A stretch of DNA of 36,782 nucleotides from Mariprofundaceae bacterium (lineage in GTDB: Bacteria; Pseudomonadota; Zetaproteobacteria; Mariprofundales; J009). The stretch lies in assembly GCA_015489095.1 (NCBI GenBank), contig WFMN01000095.1, positions 1-36,782 of the forward strand, read 5' to 3'. Positions within the stretch are counted from its first letter, which is position 1. The number at the start of each line of letters is the position of its first letter. The notes below the pieces were generated by a model. It searched no databases. It was given only the letters and a program-made list of their open reading frames with translations, and was not told the DNA's origin. Of the stretch, positions 25,010 through 35,039 are shown piece after piece. Made by a program: the position numbers and the translations under genes.

Positions 25010-25489
25010 ATGGGTTTACTATCAGGGACACAAGGGGCTGTGACCCCAGCAGCAATTGGCCTAGGTAATGTCGATAACACATCAGACCTCAATAAGCCGA
25101 TTTCCACCGCTACTCAAACAGCGCTTGATCTCAAGGCACCACTTGCATCCCCGCACCTGACGGGCGCACCAGTGGACAGCACGATCACAGCACTTACTTC
25201 AGCCACTACGATTACGCCTGATTTCAGCCTGTCGAATAACTTTACTTTGACGCTCGCTCATAACGCTACTCTAGCAAACCCCACTGGGTTGGTTGCTGGG
25301 CAGCAGGGGAGCATTGTTATCACACAGGACGCAACAGGTAGTCGGACTATGGGTTTTGGCACAAGTTGGAAGTTTGTTGGCGGTACTGCTCCTACGCTAT
25401 CTACAGCAGCGGGAGCGGTTGATCGGCTTGATTATCTTGTGGTGAGTACTACAGAGATTCATGCTGTTGTTTCATTGGATGTGAAATAA
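25010..25489 (+). CDS. Tail fibre-repeat protein
   Basis: GLGNVDNTSDLNKPISTATQTALDLKA is the classical phage tail-fibre N-terminal repeat motif. Confidence 0.65.
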   Translation: MGLLSGTQGAVTPAAIGLGNVDNTSDLNKPISTATQTALDLKAPLASPHLTGAPVDSTITALTSATTITPDFSLSNNFTLTLAHNATLANPTGLVAGQQGSIVITQDATGSRTMGFGTSWKFVGGTAPTLSTAAGAVDRLDYLVVSTTEIHAVVSLDVK

Positions 25490-26397
25490 TGTTTAACCAT
25501 GTAATGCAAGGTGCGAGTGCCGCAGGTGGCGCTCAGCTTTATCCAAATATTACAGCATCCGTAACACCAACCATCGACGGTAACTACCATGTTTATCAGT
25601 TCAACTCTTCTGGTACTTTCACTGTCAATGCCTTGGGCACTGACCCTGTATATGGTGCTGTTTGTGATTATCTTATTGTGGCTGGTGGCGGCGGAGGTGG
25701 CAACGCTGGTGCTGCAGGAGGAGGCGGTGGTGCTGGCGGTTTTCTTACAGCTACAGGTGCTAGCTTATCTGTAGGGTCTCATTCTGTAGTTGTGGGTGCT
25801 GGTGGTAGTGCACCAACAGTGTACGCTAATGGGGGTAATGGAGCAGATAGTAGTGTATTCGGTGTTACAGCTGTTGGTGGTGGCGGTGGTGGTGGTGTGC
25901 TTAGTACCACTACCAGTATAGTCGCACCTACAGGTGGTTCAGGCGGTGGTGGTTCTAATCGTGCTTTGGGTGGTTCAGGAACAGCGGGACAAGGTAATGC
26001 TGGCGGTGATGGTAATGCAAATCCTGCCTATCTAGCCGGAGGAGGCGGTGGTGCTGGTACTATTGGTGCCAATGCTGGCGCTCACGGCACAGCGAGTGGT
26101 GCCGGTGGTGCTGGATTGTCTTCGTCTATTACTGGTGTTGCTGTAACATACGCTGGTGGCGGCGGAGGTGGCGGTGATGATTACGCCGGGCGAGGTGCTG
26201 GCGGCGCTGGAGGCACTGGTGGTGGCGGTAATGGCTACAGCTCTAATGGCATTGGAGTTAATAATCCTGCTGGCGCAGGCGGAGCTAATCTCGGCGGTGG
26301 TGGCGGAGGCAGTGGTTGGAGTAATGCTACGAATACCTTTGTATCAGGAGCTAACGGTGGCTCCGGTGTAGTAATTATTCGAGTGAGGTTCCAGTAA
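25489..26397 (+). CDS. Glycine-rich domain protein (fibre cassette)
   Basis: YQFNSSGTFTV...DYLIVAGGGGGGNAGAAGGGGGAGG, then many GGxG tracts. ATGA-type coupling. Confidence 0.6.
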   Translation: MFNHVMQGASAAGGAQLYPNITASVTPTIDGNYHVYQFNSSGTFTVNALGTDPVYGAVCDYLIVAGGGGGGNAGAAGGGGGAGGFLTATGASLSVGSHSVVVGAGGSAPTVYANGGNGADSSVFGVTAVGGGGGGGVLSTTTSIVAPTGGSGGGGSNRALGGSGTAGQGNAGGDGNANPAYLAGGGGGAGTIGANAGAHGTASGAGGAGLSSSITGVAVTYAGGGGGGGDDYAGRGAGGAGGTGGGGNGYSSNGIGVNNPAGAGGANLGGGGGGSGWSNATNTFVSGANGGSGVVIIRVRFQ

Positions 26398-29431: not shown

Positions 29432-29460
29432 TTGACAACTAGCGCAGAAAGCGCTAGAGT
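29432..29460 (+). promoter_or_regulatory. Near-consensus sigma70 promoter with an embedded palindromic operator
   Basis: TTGACA (29432-29437), 17-nt spacer, TAGAGT (29455-29460). The palindrome ctagcgc-agaaa-gcgctag (29439-29457) covers the spacer and part of the -10. Confidence 0.6.
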
Positions 29461-29529
29461 ACGCACATGGCCGGAGGGTAACCGGTCAAAATCAAGGCGG
29501 CACCGGCCAACGGGGTGCAGGAGAGAAGA

Positions 29530-29871
29530 ATGAAACTGTCTGTATCTAACATAATTGAGCTGCAAGGGCTTGACCATCATGCTGCCATCGCTTTTTCCGC
29601 GGCGCTAGGTGAGCGCATGAAAGATCCCGACACAACACTGACATCCGAGGACTATCGGGCTGTCATGATCGAAATCGAACACATGATGGCCAAGGCTCTT
29701 TCGGAAAAAGACACCACCCCGCCTTTTGGCTGGGAAAGCAATTGGAAAAAAAGGTGTGACGCTCTGGCCAAGGTGCGAGAAGATGTCCACAGCCTCTTCC
29801 TCCACCTAAGCGCATGGGGAGTGGCTGATATCCCTCCCGAGGTGCAGGACTCAATGGTCGCGCCTCAATGA
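29530..29871 (+). CDS. Hypothetical protein (first gene of the accessory operon)
   Basis: SD aggagagaag before the ATG at 29530. 113 aa. No motif recognised. Confidence 0.55.
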   Translation: MKLSVSNIIELQGLDHHAAIAFSAALGERMKDPDTTLTSEDYRAVMIEIEHMMAKALSEKDTTPPFGWESNWKKRCDALAKVREDVHSLFLHLSAWGVADIPPEVQDSMVAPQ

Positions 29872-30281
29872 AGGCGTCGTTGTCAATTGAGGTGTTTGGA
29901 GACGCTGAAAACCAGCGTCTCCGCCTCTTTGAAAGTATTGCTGACCAAGTGACGCCCGGCATCGGCCGGGCGATCACCGGCGGCTATCGCCGCAAGCGGC
30001 CGTGGGTGGCGGAGATCATCGGCGTGAGCCAGAGGTATGGGTTCGAGAGAAGCTTCCTCGACCCAAAAAAAGATTATTCTCGCTCGAACGCCATCGGCAG
30101 TCGCGGCGTGCGTCTTTTTTTTATTTTGGAGTCTGGGCGCCTATATGAAATAAACGAGCAGACATCATGGCGGCGTTGGCTGCGTTGGTATGCAGTCGTG
30201 TCTGACTCCGGTGATATTGTCCATGTAAGCAAAGAGGAGGCGCATCAATGGCTAAGAGACCGCTTGGTATCGATGTCCTGA
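29868..30281 (+). CDS. Hypothetical protein (second gene of the accessory operon)
   Basis: 137 aa, ATGA overlap. No motif recognised. Confidence 0.55.
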   Translation: MKASLSIEVFGDAENQRLRLFESIADQVTPGIGRAITGGYRRKRPWVAEIIGVSQRYGFERSFLDPKKDYSRSNAIGSRGVRLFFILESGRLYEINEQTSWRRWLRWYAVVSDSGDIVHVSKEEAHQWLRDRLVSMS

Positions 30282-31456
30282 CAGCGGCCAGGCAGCGGAT
30301 AGCGAGGGTGTTCGATGACTTTCCTCGCATCTATGTGTCGTTCAGTGGCGGCAAAGATTCCTCAGTCATGACCCATCTGGTCATGGAGGAGGCACGACGG
30401 CGCGGGCGCAAAGTCGGCTTGCTGCTGGTAGATCTGGAGGCGCAATATAAGATAACTATGCAGTTCGCTGAATCCATATATGAGATGTATGCAGACTGCA
30501 TCGAGCCATACTGGATTGCGCTCCCTATTCATCTTCGCAACGCGGTCTCGCAGTTCGAGCCGCAATGGGTCTGCTGGGATCCGAATGCGAAGGATCGATG
30601 GGTGCGCAAGCCTCCGAGAATCGCCATCACGGACGAATCGCTCTTCCCATTCTTCCGTCGCGGAATGGAATTTGAGGAGTTCGTGCCGCAATTCGGCCAT
30701 TGGTACGCTCAGGGGAAGCTCTGTGCATGCTTCGTTGGAATCCGCGCCGATGAATCACTCAATCGCTATCGCACGGTATGCGGACGCAAGGCTATGTTTG
30801 AGGGGATCAAGTGGACGACATGGTGCGGTGAGACATTATATAACGCTTATCCTATCTATGACTGGCGCACAGAGGATATCTGGCGCTACCTCGGCAAATA
30901 TGACAAGCCGTATAACAAGCTCTACGACCTGATGCACAAGGCTGGCCTAAGCATTCATCAGGCGCGAATCTGTCAGCCCTATGGCGATGACCAGCGCAAG
31001 GGGCTTTGGCTGTATCACATCATCGAGCCGGAGACCTGGGGGAAGGTGGTGGCTAGGGTAAACGGTGCCAACCAAGGCGCATTGTATGCGCAAGAGACCG
31101 GAAATGTCCTTGGACGGATCAAGATAACACTTCCGCCAGGACACACATGGAAAAGCTATAGTCAGCTTTTGATGGCATCGATGCCAGATAAAACCCGTGA
31201 ACACTATGAGAACAAGATCGCCGTGTTTCTCAAATGGTGGGCAGATCGTGGCTATGCAAATGGAATTCCCGACGAAGCCCCCCCAAAAGATGAAGCTGCA
31301 AAAAAGGCGCCGTCGTGGCGTCGGATCGCAAAATCCCTGCTCAGAAACGATTACTGGTGCAAGGGGTTGTCGTTCACTCAGACGAAAAGCGACGCCTACG
31401 AGAAATATCTAAAAGTAATGAAAAAAAGGAGGGCGGAATGGCAGATCAGGATTTGA
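30248..31456 (+). CDS. IbrA-like PP-loop ATP-pyrophosphatase (PAPS reductase / DndC superfamily with a DUF3440-like C-terminal domain)
   Basis: PP-loop motif SFSGGKDS near the N-terminus. 402 aa with a C-terminal Trp/Lys-rich extension. SD aggagg. Paired with a ParB-like gene. Confidence 0.75.
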   Translation: MAKRPLGIDVLTAARQRIARVFDDFPRIYVSFSGGKDSSVMTHLVMEEARRRGRKVGLLLVDLEAQYKITMQFAESIYEMYADCIEPYWIALPIHLRNAVSQFEPQWVCWDPNAKDRWVRKPPRIAITDESLFPFFRRGMEFEEFVPQFGHWYAQGKLCACFVGIRADESLNRYRTVCGRKAMFEGIKWTTWCGETLYNAYPIYDWRTEDIWRYLGKYDKPYNKLYDLMHKAGLSIHQARICQPYGDDQRKGLWLYHIIEPETWGKVVARVNGANQGALYAQETGNVLGRIKITLPPGHTWKSYSQLLMASMPDKTREHYENKIAVFLKWWADRGYANGIPDEAPPKDEAAKKAPSWRRIAKSLLRNDYWCKGLSFTQTKSDAYEKYLKVMKKRRAEWQIRI

Positions 31457-32076
31457 TTGAACAGGCGGCGACGCTATTTGAGCAGATCGAGACCTTCGAC
31501 AACATCGACGAACGCATGGATGCGATAAACGAAATCAGGAAGGAATTGCACAAACACAGCCCGATGCGACACGAACCGGTTGATTGCGTGCTATGGGTGC
31601 AATCGGATGATGTGTGCGCAAACGACTATAACCCAAATGTGGTGGCACCGCCGGAGATGGAACTTTTACAGCATAGCATCAGGAGCGACGGCTACACCAT
31701 GCCCATTGTTGCCCATCATCTTAGTGATAGATATGAGGTGGTTGATGGTTTCCACAGACAGCGTGTTGGTAAAGAGTGCGAAGATATCCGTGATCGCATC
31801 CATGGCAGGCTTCCGGTTTCGGTAATAAAGACAGAGAGAGCCGACCGTAATGACCGCATTGCCGCAACAATCAGGCACAACAGGGCGCGCGGCAAACACC
31901 TTGTGGATGCAATGGGCGAGATTGTGAGGGATCTTGCTCGGCGCAATTGGTCTGACAACAGGATCGCCAAGGAGCTAGGGATGGAGGCCGACGAGGTTTT
32001 GCGGCTCAAGCAGATAACAGGTCTAGCAGACTTGTTCGCTGATCAGGACTTTTCCGAAGCATGGGAGGTGGAATGA
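31438..32076 (+). CDS. IbrB-like ParB/sulfiredoxin-fold (ParB N-terminal nuclease-like) protein
   Basis: YEVVDGFHRQRV and TIRHNRARGKH motifs. SD aaaggaggg before the ATG at 31438. 19-nt overlap with the upstream gene. Confidence 0.7.
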   Translation: MADQDLIEQAATLFEQIETFDNIDERMDAINEIRKELHKHSPMRHEPVDCVLWVQSDDVCANDYNPNVVAPPEMELLQHSIRSDGYTMPIVAHHLSDRYEVVDGFHRQRVGKECEDIRDRIHGRLPVSVIKTERADRNDRIAATIRHNRARGKHLVDAMGEIVRDLARRNWSDNRIAKELGMEADEVLRLKQITGLADLFADQDFSEAWEVE

Positions 32077-32396
32077 ATATTATCCACACCGCCCGCACAG
32101 CACTCGGCCTTACGCAGGCCGAGTTCGGAGCGTGGCTAGCAGAGAGGATGGGGCGCGATCGCCCCATCCCGGACTACCGCATATCGGAGTGGGAGCGCGG
32201 CGTGCGCTCCCCACGACGCAATGTGCGGGAGATATGCGCGCCAATTGCTGCCGACGAGGTAGCTAGCGATGCCGTAATCGCAGTCTGCGGCACCCTGCAC
32301 CGCGCAGGCATCGATCTGCTTGATGCAGCGCTGTCGCCGGAGATGCTGGCGACAAAAAATAAGATTAAGACCTCAATCGAGGAATTGATCTCCTAA
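32073..32396 (+). CDS. XRE-family HTH protein (last gene of the accessory operon)
   Basis: ARTALGLTQAEFGAWLA...ISEWERG. ATGA overlap at 32073. The 3-prime end overlaps the int 3-prime end (convergent). Confidence 0.6.
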   Translation: MNIIHTARTALGLTQAEFGAWLAERMGRDRPIPDYRISEWERGVRSPRRNVREICAPIAADEVASDAVIAVCGTLHRAGIDLLDAALSPEMLATKNKIKTSIEELIS

Positions 32397-33631: not shown

Positions 33632-33956
33632 GGCAACACCTCCAAATCGCAGTGGTGGGTAAAAAAATCGCGGAAGGCCGATTACCCGCCAATTTTACCC
33701 ACCACCCCCTGCGACAGTATGCGACAGCATGCAACAGATTAGCCCCCGATTTGGGCATAAATCGTTGAGTTGCATGCTGATTGCGACGATATGCAACAGC
33801 ATGCAACTCACTACTGGTGCCGATGACTGGTGCGGGAAAAATCATCATATCATGCTGATATAGTGAGGAATGTGGGCGTTTTCGTTTTCAATTTTACCCG
33901 CCAATTTTACCCACCGCCCGAGCGACACGGGATGCGAAACCGGTTCGGTTCCGGAT
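33632..33956. other. attP-like recombination/regulatory region upstream of int
   Basis: 22-bp direct repeat ttacccgccaattttacccacc at 33682-33703 and 33894-33915, built from caattttaccc(g/a)c-type units. Decamer arrays and a 14-bp inverted repeat lie in between. There is no convincing ORF. Confidence 0.55.
33711..33812. repeat. Two clusters of three tandem 10-bp units GC(G/A)AC(A/G/T)... plus an inverted 14-mer
   Basis: gcgacagtat gcgacagcat gcaacagatt (33711-33740). gcgacgatat gcaacagcat gcaactcact (33783-33812). tgagttgcatgctg (33766-33779) is the reverse complement of cagcatgcaactca (33797-33810). Confidence 0.8.
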
Positions 33957-35039
33957 TTACCCCTCCAGCAGATCACGGATGCGCGCTTTGATTCGGTCGG
34001 CGTGGGTGTAGATGTCGTCCAGCGTGTCGATCGGCACGCGCTCCTCGGATTTGTCCGGCTGGATGAAGCCGATGTATTTCTGCGCGTGGTTGAAATGTAG
34101 TCGGCAGATGCCTTTGCGGTTGCTGTCGTCGAGCAGGATGCCGAAATAGGATTTTGTGTCGCGGTCGGTGACCCTCGATACATCCACCACCTCGCGGGCG
34201 ATGGCGCGCACGATGAGGTAGCCATCCCACTCCTCTTCGGTAGTGATAATGCCGCGATCATCTGGTTGCGGGGCGACGCCGGCAGGATCCTCTGCCACCG
34301 CGGGCTGTTCCTCCTGCTCGTATGGGTCGCTGTTCAGCGCCGACTGCAGGCGGGCGTTGATTTTTTCGTGGATGAATTGCTTGCGCGCATCGCGCACGAT
34401 GTCGGCAAACTCGGCGATCACCTGCTGGGTTTTCATGCCGTCGTACACCTGCGAGAGGAAAAACTTCACAAACTCGTCGGAGGGGTTATCCAGCTCGCGC
34501 TCCAGCACCTCTTTGATGGCGCGGGTGTATTTCAGTTTTTTGGCGGTCGTCAGGATATCGTCAACCGAGAACGCCGCCTTGGTGAATCGCTTCAGCTCGT
34601 CGATCTGGTGATCCTCAAAGTTGCGGATGTCGAAAACAAAAAACGGCGCGCTGTCCATCTTGTTCGGCTGATCCAGATCGGAGTAAAATTGATATACCAG
34701 CCCGTTGGTGAGCAGGCCGAAGCGCGCATCCTCGGTGGCGTAGTAGCGATAGAGCTGCGATGTGTGCGTCTTTTTGAGGTCGTCGCCGCACCATTTCGCC
34801 TCGACCAAGATCGACACCGCGCCATCCTTTTTGATGGCGTAGTCCACCTTCTCGCCCTTTTTGGTGCCGACATCGGCGGTGTATTCCGGCTCGACCTCGG
34901 ATGGGTCGAACACATCATACCCCAAGGCAGAGATAAACGGCATGATCAGCGCCGTTTTGGTCGCCTCCTCGGTCTTGATGCTATCAAGCTGATCGGCTGC
35001 CCGCTTGGCGATGGCGTTGATCTTATCTACTAAGTCCAT
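33957..35039 (-). CDS. Stand-alone PD-(D/E)xK nuclease-fold protein (type I restriction HsdR N-terminal-like domain) with an uncharacterised C-terminal domain
   Basis: EEATKTALIMPFISALGY...KVDYAIKKDGAVSILVEAKW...QLYRYY...FGLLTNG gives the D...E-x-K core and the family pattern. SD aggagg. Starts 21 nt after the repressor stop on the same strand. Confidence 0.65.
   Translation of the reverse strand: MDLVDKINAIAKRAADQLDSIKTEEATKTALIMPFISALGYDVFDPSEVEPEYTADVGTKKGEKVDYAIKKDGAVSILVEAKWCGDDLKKTHTSQLYRYYATEDARFGLLTNGLVYQFYSDLDQPNKMDSAPFFVFDIRNFEDHQIDELKRFTKAAFSVDDILTTAKKLKYTRAIKEVLERELDNPSDEFVKFFLSQVYDGMKTQQVIAEFADIVRDARKQFIHEKINARLQSALNSDPYEQEEQPAVAEDPAGVAPQPDDRGIITTEEEWDGYLIVRAIAREVVDVSRVTDRDTKSYFGILLDDSNRKGICRLHFNHAQKYIGFIQPDKSEERVPIDTLDDIYTHADRIKARIRDLLEG

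What the first reader, a model, noticed from the sequence alone, without database searches (positions are those of the whole stretch)
29432..32396. Five-gene accessory operon built around an IbrA-like PP-loop enzyme and an IbrB-like ParB/Srx protein: candidate uncharacterised DNA-modification, defence or regulatory system
**What the sequence shows**
- Between the lysis cassette and int (a classic moron/defence slot) sits a tightly coupled + strand operon.
- It lies behind a near-consensus promoter whose spacer holds a perfect 7-5-7 palindrome.
- Gene order: a 113-aa unknown, a 137-aa unknown, a 402-aa protein with the PP-loop SFSGGKDS and a long C-terminal extension (IbrA / PAPS-reductase / DndC-like), a 212-aa ParB N-terminal-domain protein (DGFHR, RHNRARG; IbrB/DndB-like), and an XRE HTH protein.
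- The DNA here is AT-richer than the structural genes.

**Why it matters**
- PP-loop plus ParB-like pairs are the chemical core of DNA phosphorothioation (DndC/DndB).
- A PAPS-reductase-family gene (brxP) is also part of one BREX type.
- The biochemical function of IbrAB-type pairs is essentially unknown.
- I do not recognise the two upstream small proteins, and they are coupled to the pair.

**Inference**
This is a self-regulated module that either modifies DNA (of the phage or the lysogen) or senses and blocks incoming DNA.
Basis: partly seen in the sequence, partly recalled or inferred. Interest (0 to 1): 0.75.

Follow-up and report, generated by a model that had tools for sequence, protein, structure and literature searches.

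The report
Three-gene IbrAB-type phage enzyme cassette
A temperate phage carries a horizontally acquired cassette built on the widespread but biochemically uncharacterised IbrA/IbrB enzyme pair. Its real conserved unit is three genes, not five, because a previously undescribed small protein always travels with the pair.

Summary
The sequence features are real. Five overlapping + strand genes (29530-32396) sit between the lysis cassette and int, behind a TTGACA-17-TAGAGT promoter whose spacer holds a perfect 7-5-7 palindrome.

The 402-aa protein is a true IbrA (PAPS_reduct + DUF3440, intact PP-loop). The 212-aa protein is its IbrB partner (ParB/Srx-like).

The five genes are not one conserved system:
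- The 113-aa protein is an ORFan among 5.8 billion proteins.
- The HTH protein has a single relative, in a phage without IbrAB.
- Only the 137-aa protein ("g2") is linked: IbrA and IbrB lay immediately downstream wherever the contig allowed a check.
- g2 belongs to a family of about 1,300 clusters. It has no Pfam model, and its confident predicted fold matches no solved structure.

Other IbrAB clades replace g2 with an unrelated ~120-aa domain ("X"), either free-standing or fused to IbrB. Some add a GNAT acyltransferase.

The cassette fails the membership tests for CysH, DndC/DndB and BrxP.

Best reading (about 0.4): an ATP-dependent DNA-modifying module of non-sulfur chemistry. Nothing biochemical is shown. 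It is a new variant of a known, uncharacterised kind.

The parts
29432..29460 (+). Sigma-70-like promoter: TTGACA, 17 nt, TAGAGT
   Evidence: Matches 10 of 12 consensus positions. It lies 70 nt upstream of g1 in a 206-bp intergenic region. Function is not shown.
29439..29457 (.). Perfect 7-5-7 palindrome (CTAGCGC AGAAA GCGCTAG) spanning the promoter spacer and the start of the -10 hexamer; candidate operator
   Evidence: Found as a perfect inverted repeat. It is the only exact copy in the window. Such a repeat falls inside a 29-nt window in 0.3% of shuffles. The protein that binds it is unknown.
29530..29871 (+). g1: 113-aa acidic, all-helical ORFan; a local addition, not part of the conserved core
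   Evidence: It matches only itself among 5.8 billion proteins. No Pfam, NCBIfam, PHROG or PADLOC hit. The AlphaFold2 model is helical with pLDDT 69.7 and has no significant fold match. Its GC3 of 0.57 matches the core cassette.
29868..30281 (+). g2: 137-aa basic alpha/beta protein; obligate third partner of IbrA/IbrB in this clade
   Evidence: - PHROG 26647, 'unknown function', E 1e-9; no Pfam hit above threshold.
- The family has about 1,300 clusters at 50% identity.
- AlphaFold2 model pLDDT 89.6; best TM-score against PDB 0.31. In the viral structure library it matches only proteins with no name or function.
- IbrA and IbrB lie immediately downstream of every g2 homologue wherever the contig allows it to be checked.
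- pI 9.8.
30248..31456 (+). ibrA: 402-aa PP-loop ATP-pyrophosphatase-type enzyme with a PAPS_reduct domain and a C-terminal DUF3440 domain
   Evidence: - Pfam PF01507 62.9 bits and PF11922 125.1 bits; PHROG 2302, E 1e-90.
- The SFSGGKDS PP-loop is invariant.
- 50-72% identical to homologues in many phyla.
- 48% identical to the annotated IbrA of Escherichia phage PhiR5_2.
31438..32076 (+). ibrB: 212-aa ParB/Srx-like N-terminal domain (DGFHR, RHNRARG) plus a probable C-terminal HTH region
   Evidence: - PHROG 2159, E 1e-71.
- Pfam ParB_N 23.0 bits, below the 26.3-bit threshold.
- Weak HTH-type matches at residues 142-195.
- Motifs are conserved in 59 homologues.
- Adjacent to ibrA in 60 of 66 loci.
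32073..32396 (+). g5: 107-aa probable XRE-type HTH protein; not part of the conserved module
   Evidence: - Pfam HTH_3 17.0 bits, below the 23-bit threshold.
- Its only relative (49% identity) lies in another phage with no IbrAB nearby.
- GC3 of 0.69 is intermediate between the cassette and the core phage genes.

Best explanation
This is a horizontally acquired IbrAB-type cassette. Its functional core is three proteins: g2, IbrA and IbrB.

**Proposed mechanism (all inferred)**
1. IbrB, a ParB/Srx-fold nucleotide-binding domain with a probable HTH tail, binds DNA and positions the enzyme.
2. IbrA uses its PP-loop to adenylate a group on the nucleic acid, such as a base carbonyl or a backbone phosphate. 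A nucleophile then displaces the AMP and leaves a covalent modification.
3. The chemistry is not obligatorily sulfur-based, because no cysteine is conserved across the family.
4. g2, which is basic and evolves faster than the other two, is a clade-specific adaptor or specificity subunit. Other clades fill this role with the unrelated X domain and sometimes add a GNAT acyltransferase.
5. The likely benefit is protection of phage DNA from host restriction, or altered reading of DNA.

**Local context (also inferred)**
- g1 and g5 are local additions.
- The operon has its own promoter.
- That promoter is probably repressed through the palindrome, by g5 or by IbrB.

**Shown:** the gene anatomy, family membership and linkage. 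**Inferred:** the substrate, the chemistry and the regulation.
For: **Enzyme**
- Intact, invariant PP-loop and PAPS_reduct + DUF3440 architecture.
- IbrA is 50-72% identical across many bacterial phyla and in Asgard-binned contigs. This argues for a universal substrate rather than a host-specific protein target.

**Partners**
- IbrB is adjacent in 60 of 66 loci and has strongly conserved ParB/Srx-type motifs.
- g2 is strictly linked to the pair.
- In 52 of the 66 loci a third component is present: g2 in 26, free-standing X in 16, and X fused to IbrB in 10. g2 and X never occur together and are not homologous.
- A GNAT gene sits inside or beside 7 of 66 modules. In one contig GNAT is fused to g2 directly upstream of an IbrA start.

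**Genomic context**
- The module occurs in a virulent phage (FCL-2; described as non-lysogenic in PMC4541368).
- It lies among replication genes in phage Gaia.
- It lies next to a terminase and a ParB-methyltransferase fusion in L084.

**Precedent.** ParB-like partners are known in DNA-modification systems: DndB and DpdB, as described in PMC10853773 and PMC12839542.
Against: - Nothing shows that DNA is the substrate.
- The ParB/Srx fold also includes ATP-dependent enzymes that act on proteins or small molecules (Srx and SerK, mentioned in PMC12704722).
- The founding E. coli pair is known only as a genetic activator of prophage eib genes. I recall this from Sandt et al. 2002; that paper is only cited, not held, in the library searched.
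- No donor-forming enzyme, glycosylase or base-exchange enzyme accompanies the core.
- The module's position in phage genomes is heterogeneous: after lysis genes, beside int, beside terminase, or among replication genes. Expression timing therefore cannot be read from position.
- In this window it has its own sigma-70-type promoter at the prophage end, which fits expression during lysogeny as well.
- IbrB's Pfam ParB_N score is below threshold.
Confidence: 0.4

Rival explanations
1. Regulatory module (lysogenic conversion). IbrB binds DNA through its HTH region, and IbrA supplies an ATP-dependent activity or signal. Together they switch on silent prophage or host genes, as reported genetically for E. 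coli IbrAB and the eib genes.
For: - Annotation pipelines name the pair 'co-activator of prophage gene expression'.
- The E. coli K-12 paralogues ybdNM form a tightly repressed operon under YbdO/CitR (PMC9068703).
- Here the operon has its own promoter with an operator-like palindrome at the prophage end.
- IbrB has weak HTH-type matches.
Against: - The pair occurs in a virulent phage and inside replication or packaging modules.
- IbrA is conserved at 50-72% identity across phyla, which is unlike a regulator tuned to particular promoters.
- A pure regulator does not need an invariant PP-loop enzyme, alternative third subunits and an optional GNAT.
- Gene activation could be a side effect of DNA modification.
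Confidence: 0.2
2. Prophage-encoded defence or superinfection-exclusion system. The module marks or senses DNA in the lysogen and blocks incoming phages or plasmids.
For: - It lies in the moron slot between the lysis genes and int, with its own promoter.
- It is compositionally foreign to the core phage genes.
- It has weak local similarity to DndC and BrxP models.
- A 2026 preprint lists candidate defence operons that pair a YejK-like nucleoid protein with a PAPS reductase, some also with Arc and ParBc proteins.
Against: - There is no nuclease or other effector in the core. No PADLOC family is matched beyond about 60 residues.
- No YejK-like protein is present.
- The module occurs in a virulent phage and in lytic-cycle gene blocks.
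- The neighbour census shows phage structural, packaging and lysogeny genes, not defence islands.
Confidence: 0.12
3. RNA (tRNA or rRNA) modification enzyme. IbrA acts like TilS, TtcA or ThiI on a universal RNA, with IbrB and g2 as accessory factors, to retune translation during infection.
For: - Most characterised PP-loop enzymes that act on nucleic acids modify tRNA (established knowledge). Weak TilS and TtcA matches appear.
- A universal RNA substrate would explain the cross-phylum conservation.
- GNAT enzymes also acetylate tRNA.
Against: - No RNA-binding domain such as THUMP, PUA or S4 was detected.
- The obligate partner has the ParB fold, which is typically associated with DNA.
- Matches to tRNA-enzyme models are only at the PP-loop, at 12-16 bits against cut-offs of 94-272 bits.
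Confidence: 0.12
4. Nucleotide or small-molecule enzyme. IbrA, with IbrB acting as an Srx-like phosphotransferase, converts a nucleotide or metabolite, for example to make or destroy a signal or a precursor. DNA is not touched.
For: - The ParB/Srx fold includes ATP-dependent enzymes acting on non-DNA substrates, and members bind ATP, GTP or CTP (PMC12704722).
- The PAPS-reductase superfamily acts mostly on nucleotide-linked small molecules (hits).
Against: - IbrB keeps a C-terminal HTH-like region.
- IbrA (pI 9.4) and g2 (pI 9.8) are both basic.
- No metabolic partner genes are conserved nearby.
Confidence: 0.1
5. Ordinary sulfate-assimilation auxiliary metabolic gene: a phage CysH that reduces PAPS to sulfite.
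For: - The Pfam PAPS_reduct domain is present.
- Virome surveys count such genes, including a DUF3440-bearing clade, as cysH (preprint 10.1101/2021.01.05.425418).
Against: - CysH and PAPS-reductase models score 30-39 bits against cut-offs of 154-254 bits.
- There is no ECGLH catalytic-cysteine motif in the sequence.
- No cysteine is invariant across the family.
- The PP-loop is the canonical ATP-binding SGGKDS.
- The obligate partners are ParB-like and g2 proteins, not cys genes.
Confidence: 0.02

Closest known systems
E. coli IbrA/IbrB (ECOR-9 island; annotated copies in phages such as Escherichia phage PhiR5_2)
   Same: - Same two-domain IbrA (PAPS_reduct + DUF3440) followed by an overlapping ParB-like IbrB, on a mobile or prophage element.
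- IbrA is 48% identical over 98% of its length.
   Different: - The E. coli phage copy has no third gene; antirepressor genes lie upstream, then a 240-bp gap.
- Here g2 is strictly coupled upstream.
- The only function reported for the E. coli pair is genetic activation of eib genes (recalled from Sandt et al. 2002, not readable here).
E. coli K-12 YbdN/YbdM
   Same: Described as a PAPS reductase/DUF3440 protein plus a ParB-like protein in one operon, of unknown function (PMC9068703).
   Different: - It is chromosomal, repressed by the adjacent LysR regulator YbdO/CitR, and linked to citrate-lyase genes.
- It is not phage-borne.
- I did not compare it to the window by sequence.
DndC/DndB of DNA phosphorothioation
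   Same: The same two superfamilies are paired: a PP-loop PAPS-reductase-like enzyme with a ParB-superfamily protein carrying a DGxHR-type motif. This is a useful model for a DNA-directed PP-loop enzyme with a ParB-like regulator or partner.
   Different: - TIGR03183 scores 21.4 bits against a 290.4-bit cut-off, and no DndB model matches.
- DndA, DndD and DndE are absent.
- DndC's cluster and dyad cysteines (PMC10853773) have no family-wide counterpart.
BrxP of type 4 BREX
   Same: A PAPS-reductase-family enzyme in a DNA-directed system.
   Different: - The PADLOC BrxP match covers only about 60 residues (25.6 bits).
- There are no PglZ, BrxC or other BREX genes in the operon.
- BrxP carries extra domains (DUF4007, a cysteine-rich region; PMC12839542) that are absent here.
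DpdA/DpdB 7-deazaguanine DNA modification
   Same: A ParB-like ATPase (DpdB) assists an enzyme that modifies DNA bases (PMC12839542). This is an analogue for the role proposed for IbrB.
   Different: The catalytic enzyme there is a TGT-family transglycosylase, not a PP-loop enzyme. I found no homology to DpdA or DpdC.
PANGU-like candidate operons, clusters 8 and 9 (YejK-like nucleoid protein + PAPS reductase, with or without Arc and ParBc proteins)
   Same: A PAPS reductase and a ParBc protein in one small operon of a mobile or defence context (preprint 10.64898/2026.04.06.716658).
   Different: - Those operons are defined by a YejK/NdpA-type protein of at least 300 aa. None is present here.
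- I could not check whether their PAPS reductase is of the IbrA type.

Membership tests
IbrA family (PAPS_reduct + DUF3440) | PAPS_reduct domain (PF01507) above the Pfam gathering score | tested here: met
   62.9 bits against a cut-off of 22.5
IbrA family (PAPS_reduct + DUF3440) | C-terminal DUF3440 domain (PF11922) above the gathering score | tested here: met
   125.1 bits against a cut-off of 25; PHROG 2302, E 1e-90, over residues 5-386
IbrA family (PAPS_reduct + DUF3440) | Canonical PP-loop SxSGGKDS | tested here: met
   SFSGGKDS at residues 31-38. S33, G35, K36, D37 and S38 are invariant in close and distant homologues.
IbrA family (PAPS_reduct + DUF3440) | Adjacent, co-oriented IbrB-type ParB-like gene | tested here: met
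   ibrB overlaps ibrA by 19 nt. The pair is adjacent in 60 of 66 loci.
IbrA family (PAPS_reduct + DUF3440) | Activates silent prophage (eib) gene expression | not testable with these tools
   This is a genetic phenotype reported for the E. coli pair (recalled from Sandt et al. 2002; the paper is not held).
IbrB / ParB-Srx superfamily | ParB N-terminal domain (PF02195) above the gathering score | tested here: inconclusive
   23.0 bits against a cut-off of 26.3. However, PHROG 2159 'ParB-like partition protein' scores E 1e-71, and the NPN...DGFHR...RHNRARG motifs are conserved in 59 homologues.
CysH (PAPS reductase, sulfate assimilation) | Score above the curated equivalog/subfamily cut-offs | tested here: not met
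   TIGR02057 38.7 against 254.2; NF002537 33.6 against 154; TIGR00434 30.2 against 165.1
CysH (PAPS reductase, sulfate assimilation) | C-terminal catalytic cysteine in an ECGLH-type motif (established knowledge of the family) | tested here: not met
   There is no ECG[LI]H motif in the 402-aa sequence. No cysteine is invariant across diverse IbrA proteins.
DndC / Dnd phosphorothioation | DndC equivalog score | tested here: not met
   TIGR03183 scores 21.4 against 290.4. The PADLOC DndC match is 28 bits over about 60 residues.
DndC / Dnd phosphorothioation | Partner genes DndA (or IscS), DndD and DndE in the cluster | tested here: not met
   None of the five operon proteins matches them. The conserved neighbours are g2 and IbrB only.
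DndC / Dnd phosphorothioation | Three-cysteine 4Fe-4S site plus a cysteine dyad (PMC10853773) | tested here: not met
   C109, C242 and C371 are conserved only in the close clade. They are replaced in the Streptococcus, Mycobacterium and Flavobacterium phage IbrAs.
DndB | Match to DndB/DGQHR-domain models | tested here: not met
   No such NCBIfam or PADLOC hit at E up to 0.1. Only the short DGFHR motif resembles it.
BrxP / type 4 BREX | Full-length BrxP match and BREX core genes (PglZ, BrxC and others) | tested here: not met
   The BrxP match is 25.6 bits over profile positions 245-302 of 779. No BREX model matched any of the six proteins scanned: the five operon proteins and the 360-aa HSDR_N protein.
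PANGU-like nucleoid-protein operons (clusters 8 and 9) | YejK/NdpA-type nucleoid-associated protein of at least 300 aa in the operon | tested here: not met
   No such domain was found in any operon protein or in the flanking genes scanned. The definition is given.
XRE-family HTH regulator (g5) | HTH_3 (PF01381) above the gathering score | tested here: inconclusive
   17.0 bits against a cut-off of 23. Its one relative carries a precomputed PF01381 hit, marked weak.

The most novel reading that the evidence does not exclude
IbrAB cassettes are three-component, ATP-dependent machines that install a so far undescribed, non-sulfur covalent modification on DNA. The chemistry would be of the adenylate-then-substitute type, comparable to lysidine-type amidation. 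GNAT-bearing variants would add an acyl group.

In this reading, the interchangeable third subunits decide what is attached or where. These are the g2 fold found here and the unrelated X domain found in other clades. That would make the many viral 'cysH' genes that carry DUF3440 DNA-modification genes rather than sulfur-metabolism genes.
Probability: 0.25. Interest if true: 0.85.

Novelty: new variant of a known kind. Interest (0 to 1): 0.55.

Why it matters
- **A widespread family without a function.** IbrA/IbrB is among the most widely spread and best conserved phage accessory modules: 50-72% identity from Bacillota to Asgard-binned contigs, and 131 phage records. It still has no biochemical function.
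- **A likely mis-annotation in viromics.** Virome studies routinely count such genes as sulfur-assimilation 'cysH' auxiliary genes. The membership tests here argue against that for the DUF3440 clade.
- **A better experiment.** The real unit is three components, with two alternative non-homologous third subunits and an optional GNAT. This defines the construct that should be expressed (g2 + IbrA + IbrB, not the pair alone). It may explain why the pair has resisted characterisation.
- **If it modifies DNA.** It would add a new enzymology to phage counter-restriction.

Tried and rejected
1. **Iron-sulfur or persulfide chemistry.** Three cysteines (C109, C242, C371) are invariant or nearly so in the close clade, which suggested a three-cysteine 4Fe-4S site as in DndC. 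I rejected it as a family feature, because all three are replaced in one or more distant IbrAs.
2. **Solved structures.** Neither single sequences nor profiles of IbrA and IbrB find a solved family member. Only remote PAPS reductase, CysD, FAD synthase and LarE matches appear, at the two conserved blocks.
3. **g1.**
   - No homologue.
   - The single-sequence model is only moderately confident and has no fold match.
   - No function can be assigned.
4. **Hidden homology among the coupled upstream and downstream small ORFs.** They are unrelated to each other. Because g2 starts ATG-AAR, the overlapping TGA will end any ORF in that frame, so 'coupling' in other loci may be partly an artefact.
5. 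**g2 and X as distant homologues.** hhalign gives a probability of 0.1%.
6. **Leader RNA element.** There is no Rfam match. The leader's folding energy is unremarkable, z = -1.1.
7. **Finding sister phages to compare the cargo slot.**
   - No nucleotide-level relative exists in the phage collection.
   - Viral contigs that share the last lysis protein share nothing else with the window.
   - The integrase-based loci were not analysed further.
8. **PANGU-like operons.** No YejK-like protein is present.
9. **Literature.** Nine full-text searches found no paper giving a biochemical function for IbrAB or DUF3440 proteins. Sandt et al. 2002 and Iyer et al. 2013 are not held.

Full report
**Observation.** The five + strand ORFs exist as described and are packed with overlaps.

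| Gene | Coordinates | Length |
|---|---|---|
| g1 | 29530-29871 | 113 aa |
| g2 | 29868-30281 | 137 aa |
| ibrA | 30248-31456 | 402 aa |
| ibrB | 31438-32076 | 212 aa |
| g5 | 32073-32396 | 107 aa |

- Junctions are ATGA, 34 nt, 19 nt and ATGA. ibrA, ibrB and g5 have strong Shine-Dalgarno sequences.
- The promoter TTGACA-17-TAGAGT (29432-29460) matches 10 of 12 positions. The number of promoter-like sites in the region is what shuffles give.
- The 7-5-7 palindrome at 29439-29457 is perfect and unique in the window. Its position inside the promoter is unlikely by chance: 0.3% of shuffled 29-nt windows hold such a repeat.
- g1, g2, ibrA and ibrB share a GC3 of 0.57-0.62, against 0.74-0.80 for terminase, portal and lysis genes. 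This marks a foreign cassette. g5 is intermediate at 0.69.
- The cassette lies between the lysis genes and a convergent tyrosine integrase.
- The window is a whole 36.8-kb contig. The same element occurs on two other metagenomic assemblies.

**What the proteins are.**
- *IbrA.* The 402-aa protein is a full IbrA: PAPS_reduct at 62.9 bits and DUF3440 at 125.1 bits, both above Pfam thresholds; PHROG 2302 at E 1e-90; an invariant SFSGGKDS PP-loop.
- *IbrB.* The 212-aa protein is its usual partner: PHROG 2159 at E 1e-71. Pfam ParB_N is just below threshold at 23.0 against 26.3 bits. The motifs NxYNPNxVAPPEM, DGFHR and RHNRARG are conserved in 59 homologues, and the C-terminal third gives weak HTH-type matches.
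- *g5.* A probable XRE-type HTH protein, below threshold.
- *g1 and g2.* Neither has a Pfam, NCBIfam or PADLOC match. g2 hits PHROG 26647, 'unknown function'.

**Which genes belong together.**
- A scan of one genome per species found 66 IbrA loci at 50-72% identity. They span Bacillota, Chlorobiota, Parcubacteria, Verrucomicrobiota, Actinomycetota, Bacteroidota, Pseudomonadota and Asgard-binned contigs.
- IbrB is adjacent in 60 of them. g2 is present in 26, nearly always directly upstream of and overlapping ibrA. g1 and g5 appear in none.
- g1 matches only itself among 5.8 billion proteins.
- g5 has one relative (49% identity), in a different phage context without IbrAB.
- The slots upstream of g2 and downstream of ibrB hold unrelated small genes in different loci.
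- In the other direction, every g2 homologue retrieved by searching with g2 itself is followed by ibrA, then ibrB, wherever the contig is long enough. This covers 10 viral contigs and 6 contigs that carry five different g2 homologues. One of those 6 (L083) breaks off 28 residues into IbrA, so only the IbrA start is seen there.
- The conserved unit is therefore g2-ibrA-ibrB. The 'five-gene system' is not supported.

**The g2 family.**
- An exhaustive profile search finds about 1,300 clusters at 50% identity: 933 at E up to 1e-10.
- The AlphaFold2 model is confident (pLDDT 89.6) and has an alpha/beta fold.
- It has no counterpart among solved structures (best TM-score 0.31). In the viral structure library it matches only viral proteins with no name or function.
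- The protein is basic: pI 9.8, with a family median of 8.9.
- It diverges faster (32-46% identity) than IbrA (67-72%) and IbrB (60-69%) in the same loci.
- Variants exist: a tandem duplication, forms with an extra C-terminal helical domain, and one g2::GNAT fusion placed directly before an IbrA start codon.

**Other IbrAB architectures.** This was not part of the original finding.
- Loci without g2 carry a different ~120-aa domain, here called X. Its consensus includes NRxAWxGQAA, and it has no Pfam match.
- X is free-standing next to ibrA in 16 loci and fused to the C-terminus of a long (~380 aa) IbrB in 10.
- g2 and X never occur together and are not detectably homologous (hhalign probability 0.1%).
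- The type of third component tracks IbrA similarity to the window. Median identity is 67% for g2 loci, 61% for X loci and 55% for X-fused loci.
- Of the 14 loci with neither, six have room upstream and look like true two-gene modules or carry an undetected partner. The rest are truncated or have little upstream sequence. Escherichia phage PhiR5_2 also has only two genes.
- A small GNAT acyltransferase lies in or beside 7 of 66 modules.

**Context.**
- The module is a mobile cassette of phages. Its neighbours are terminases, portals, lysins, integrases and methyltransferases.
- It sits after the lysis cassette here and in Streptococcus thermophilus phage CHPC1230. It sits beside integrases in L069 and L070, and beside a terminase and a ParB-methyltransferase fusion in L084. 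In Mycobacterium phage Gaia it lies among replication genes.
- It also occurs in Flavobacterium phage FCL-2, which its describers report as lacking integrase and not lysogenising (PMC4541368).
- A function confined to lysogeny is therefore unlikely for the family, even though this copy has its own promoter at the prophage end.

**Membership in known systems.**
- *CysH.* Scores are 30-39 bits against cut-offs of 154-254. There is no ECGLH motif, and no cysteine is conserved family-wide.
- *DndC/DndB.* 21 bits against 290; no DndB-model hit; no DndA, D or E; the cysteines required for DndC chemistry (PMC10853773) are not conserved.
- *BrxP.* A 60-residue local match and no BREX genes.
- *PANGU-like operons.* Those operons pair a PAPS reductase, and in one cluster a ParBc protein, with a nucleoid protein. 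They require a YejK-like protein, which is absent here.
- The cassette is a member of the IbrAB family only.

**Mechanism (inferred).**
- The family-wide invariants of IbrA are the ATP-binding PP-loop and acidic or aromatic residues, not cysteines. This points to adenylation of a substrate oxygen followed by substitution, rather than enzyme-persulfide sulfur transfer.
- Several features together favour a nucleic-acid substrate, most simply DNA:
  - the cross-phylum conservation;
  - an obligate ParB/Srx-like partner with an HTH-like tail;
  - the basic IbrA and g2;
  - the optional GNAT;
  - precedents of ParB-like partners in DNA-modification systems (DndB and DpdB; PMC10853773, PMC12839542).
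- From memory, Iyer et al. 2013 (Nucleic Acids Research) made a comparable computational prediction for PP-loop/ParB systems. I could not read that paper.
- I put about 0.4 on DNA modification. The rivals are a regulatory role (0.2), defence (0.12), RNA modification (0.12), a small-molecule role (0.1) and CysH-type metabolism (0.02).
- The palindrome is a plausible operator for g5 or IbrB. This is untested.

**Novelty and interest.**
- The IbrAB pair is known and widely annotated, so the core observation is not new.
- In the literature available to me, three things appear undescribed:
  - the pair is normally a three-component unit;
  - g2 is a large family without a Pfam model, and its confidently predicted fold matches no solved structure;
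  - g2 and X are alternative, non-homologous third subunits.
- This window is one clean example of the g2 variant, with a lineage-specific ORFan and an HTH gene attached.
- The function remains open. The main practical gain is a sharper experimental design, plus a caution about 'cysH' auxiliary-gene annotations for DUF3440 proteins.

Noticed in passing
window 33957-35039 (- strand): A 360-aa protein with a type I restriction-enzyme R-subunit N-terminal domain (HSDR_N, 47.9 bits) sits between the integrase/attP region and the cI-like repressor. That domain is nuclease-like, and a weak PD-(D/E)XK nuclease match (PDDEXK_3, 15.5 bits, below threshold) is also seen. It has no PADLOC match. It may be a lysogeny-expressed nuclease or defence gene.
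   Followed up: partly
window 33688-33703 and 33900-33915: The int-HSDR_N intergenic region holds two direct copies of GCCAATTTTACCCACC, a partial third copy at 33889-33899, and repeated ATGCAAC motifs. These are probably integrase arm sites or attP. No tRNA gene is present in the window.
   Followed up: no
L018, L025-L032, L034-L036, L038, L046, L060, L063 (free-standing); L040, L042-L045, L048, L050, L051, L053, L066 (fused to IbrB): An undescribed ~120-aa domain 'X' replaces g2 as the third component of IbrAB modules. Its consensus includes NRxAWxGQAA, and it has no Pfam match. It is either a separate gene or a C-terminal fusion to IbrB.
   Followed up: partly
L083 1269-1985; also L015, L025, L028, L032, L036, L041, L059: A GNAT acyltransferase recurs in IbrAB modules. 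In L083 it is fused to the g2 domain directly upstream of an IbrA start. In seven genome loci it is a separate small gene.
   Followed up: partly
L040, L043 (Thorarchaeota bins); L056 (Heimdallarchaeota bin): IbrA/IbrB modules at 50-57% identity to the window lie on contigs binned to Asgard archaea. This means either viruses or mobile elements of Asgard archaea, or binning contamination.
   Followed up: no
window 25489-26397 (+ strand): A 302-aa protein very rich in glycine runs (GGGGGG stretches; GC2 0.67, GC3 0.29) lies in the tail-fibre region.
   Followed up: no
L084 5206-6678 and L085 249-1544: A ParB_N-N6_N4 methyltransferase fusion gene lies divergently next to a g2-ibrA-ibrB module, beside the terminase. 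So two different ParB-domain genes sit within about 2 kb of each other.
   Followed up: no
L089 3811-4710 (Mycobacterium phage Gaia gene 104): In phage Gaia, the gene after the IbrA homologue is annotated 'ectoine synthase/ParB multidomain protein'. IbrB may therefore carry a further fused domain in actinophages.
   Followed up: no
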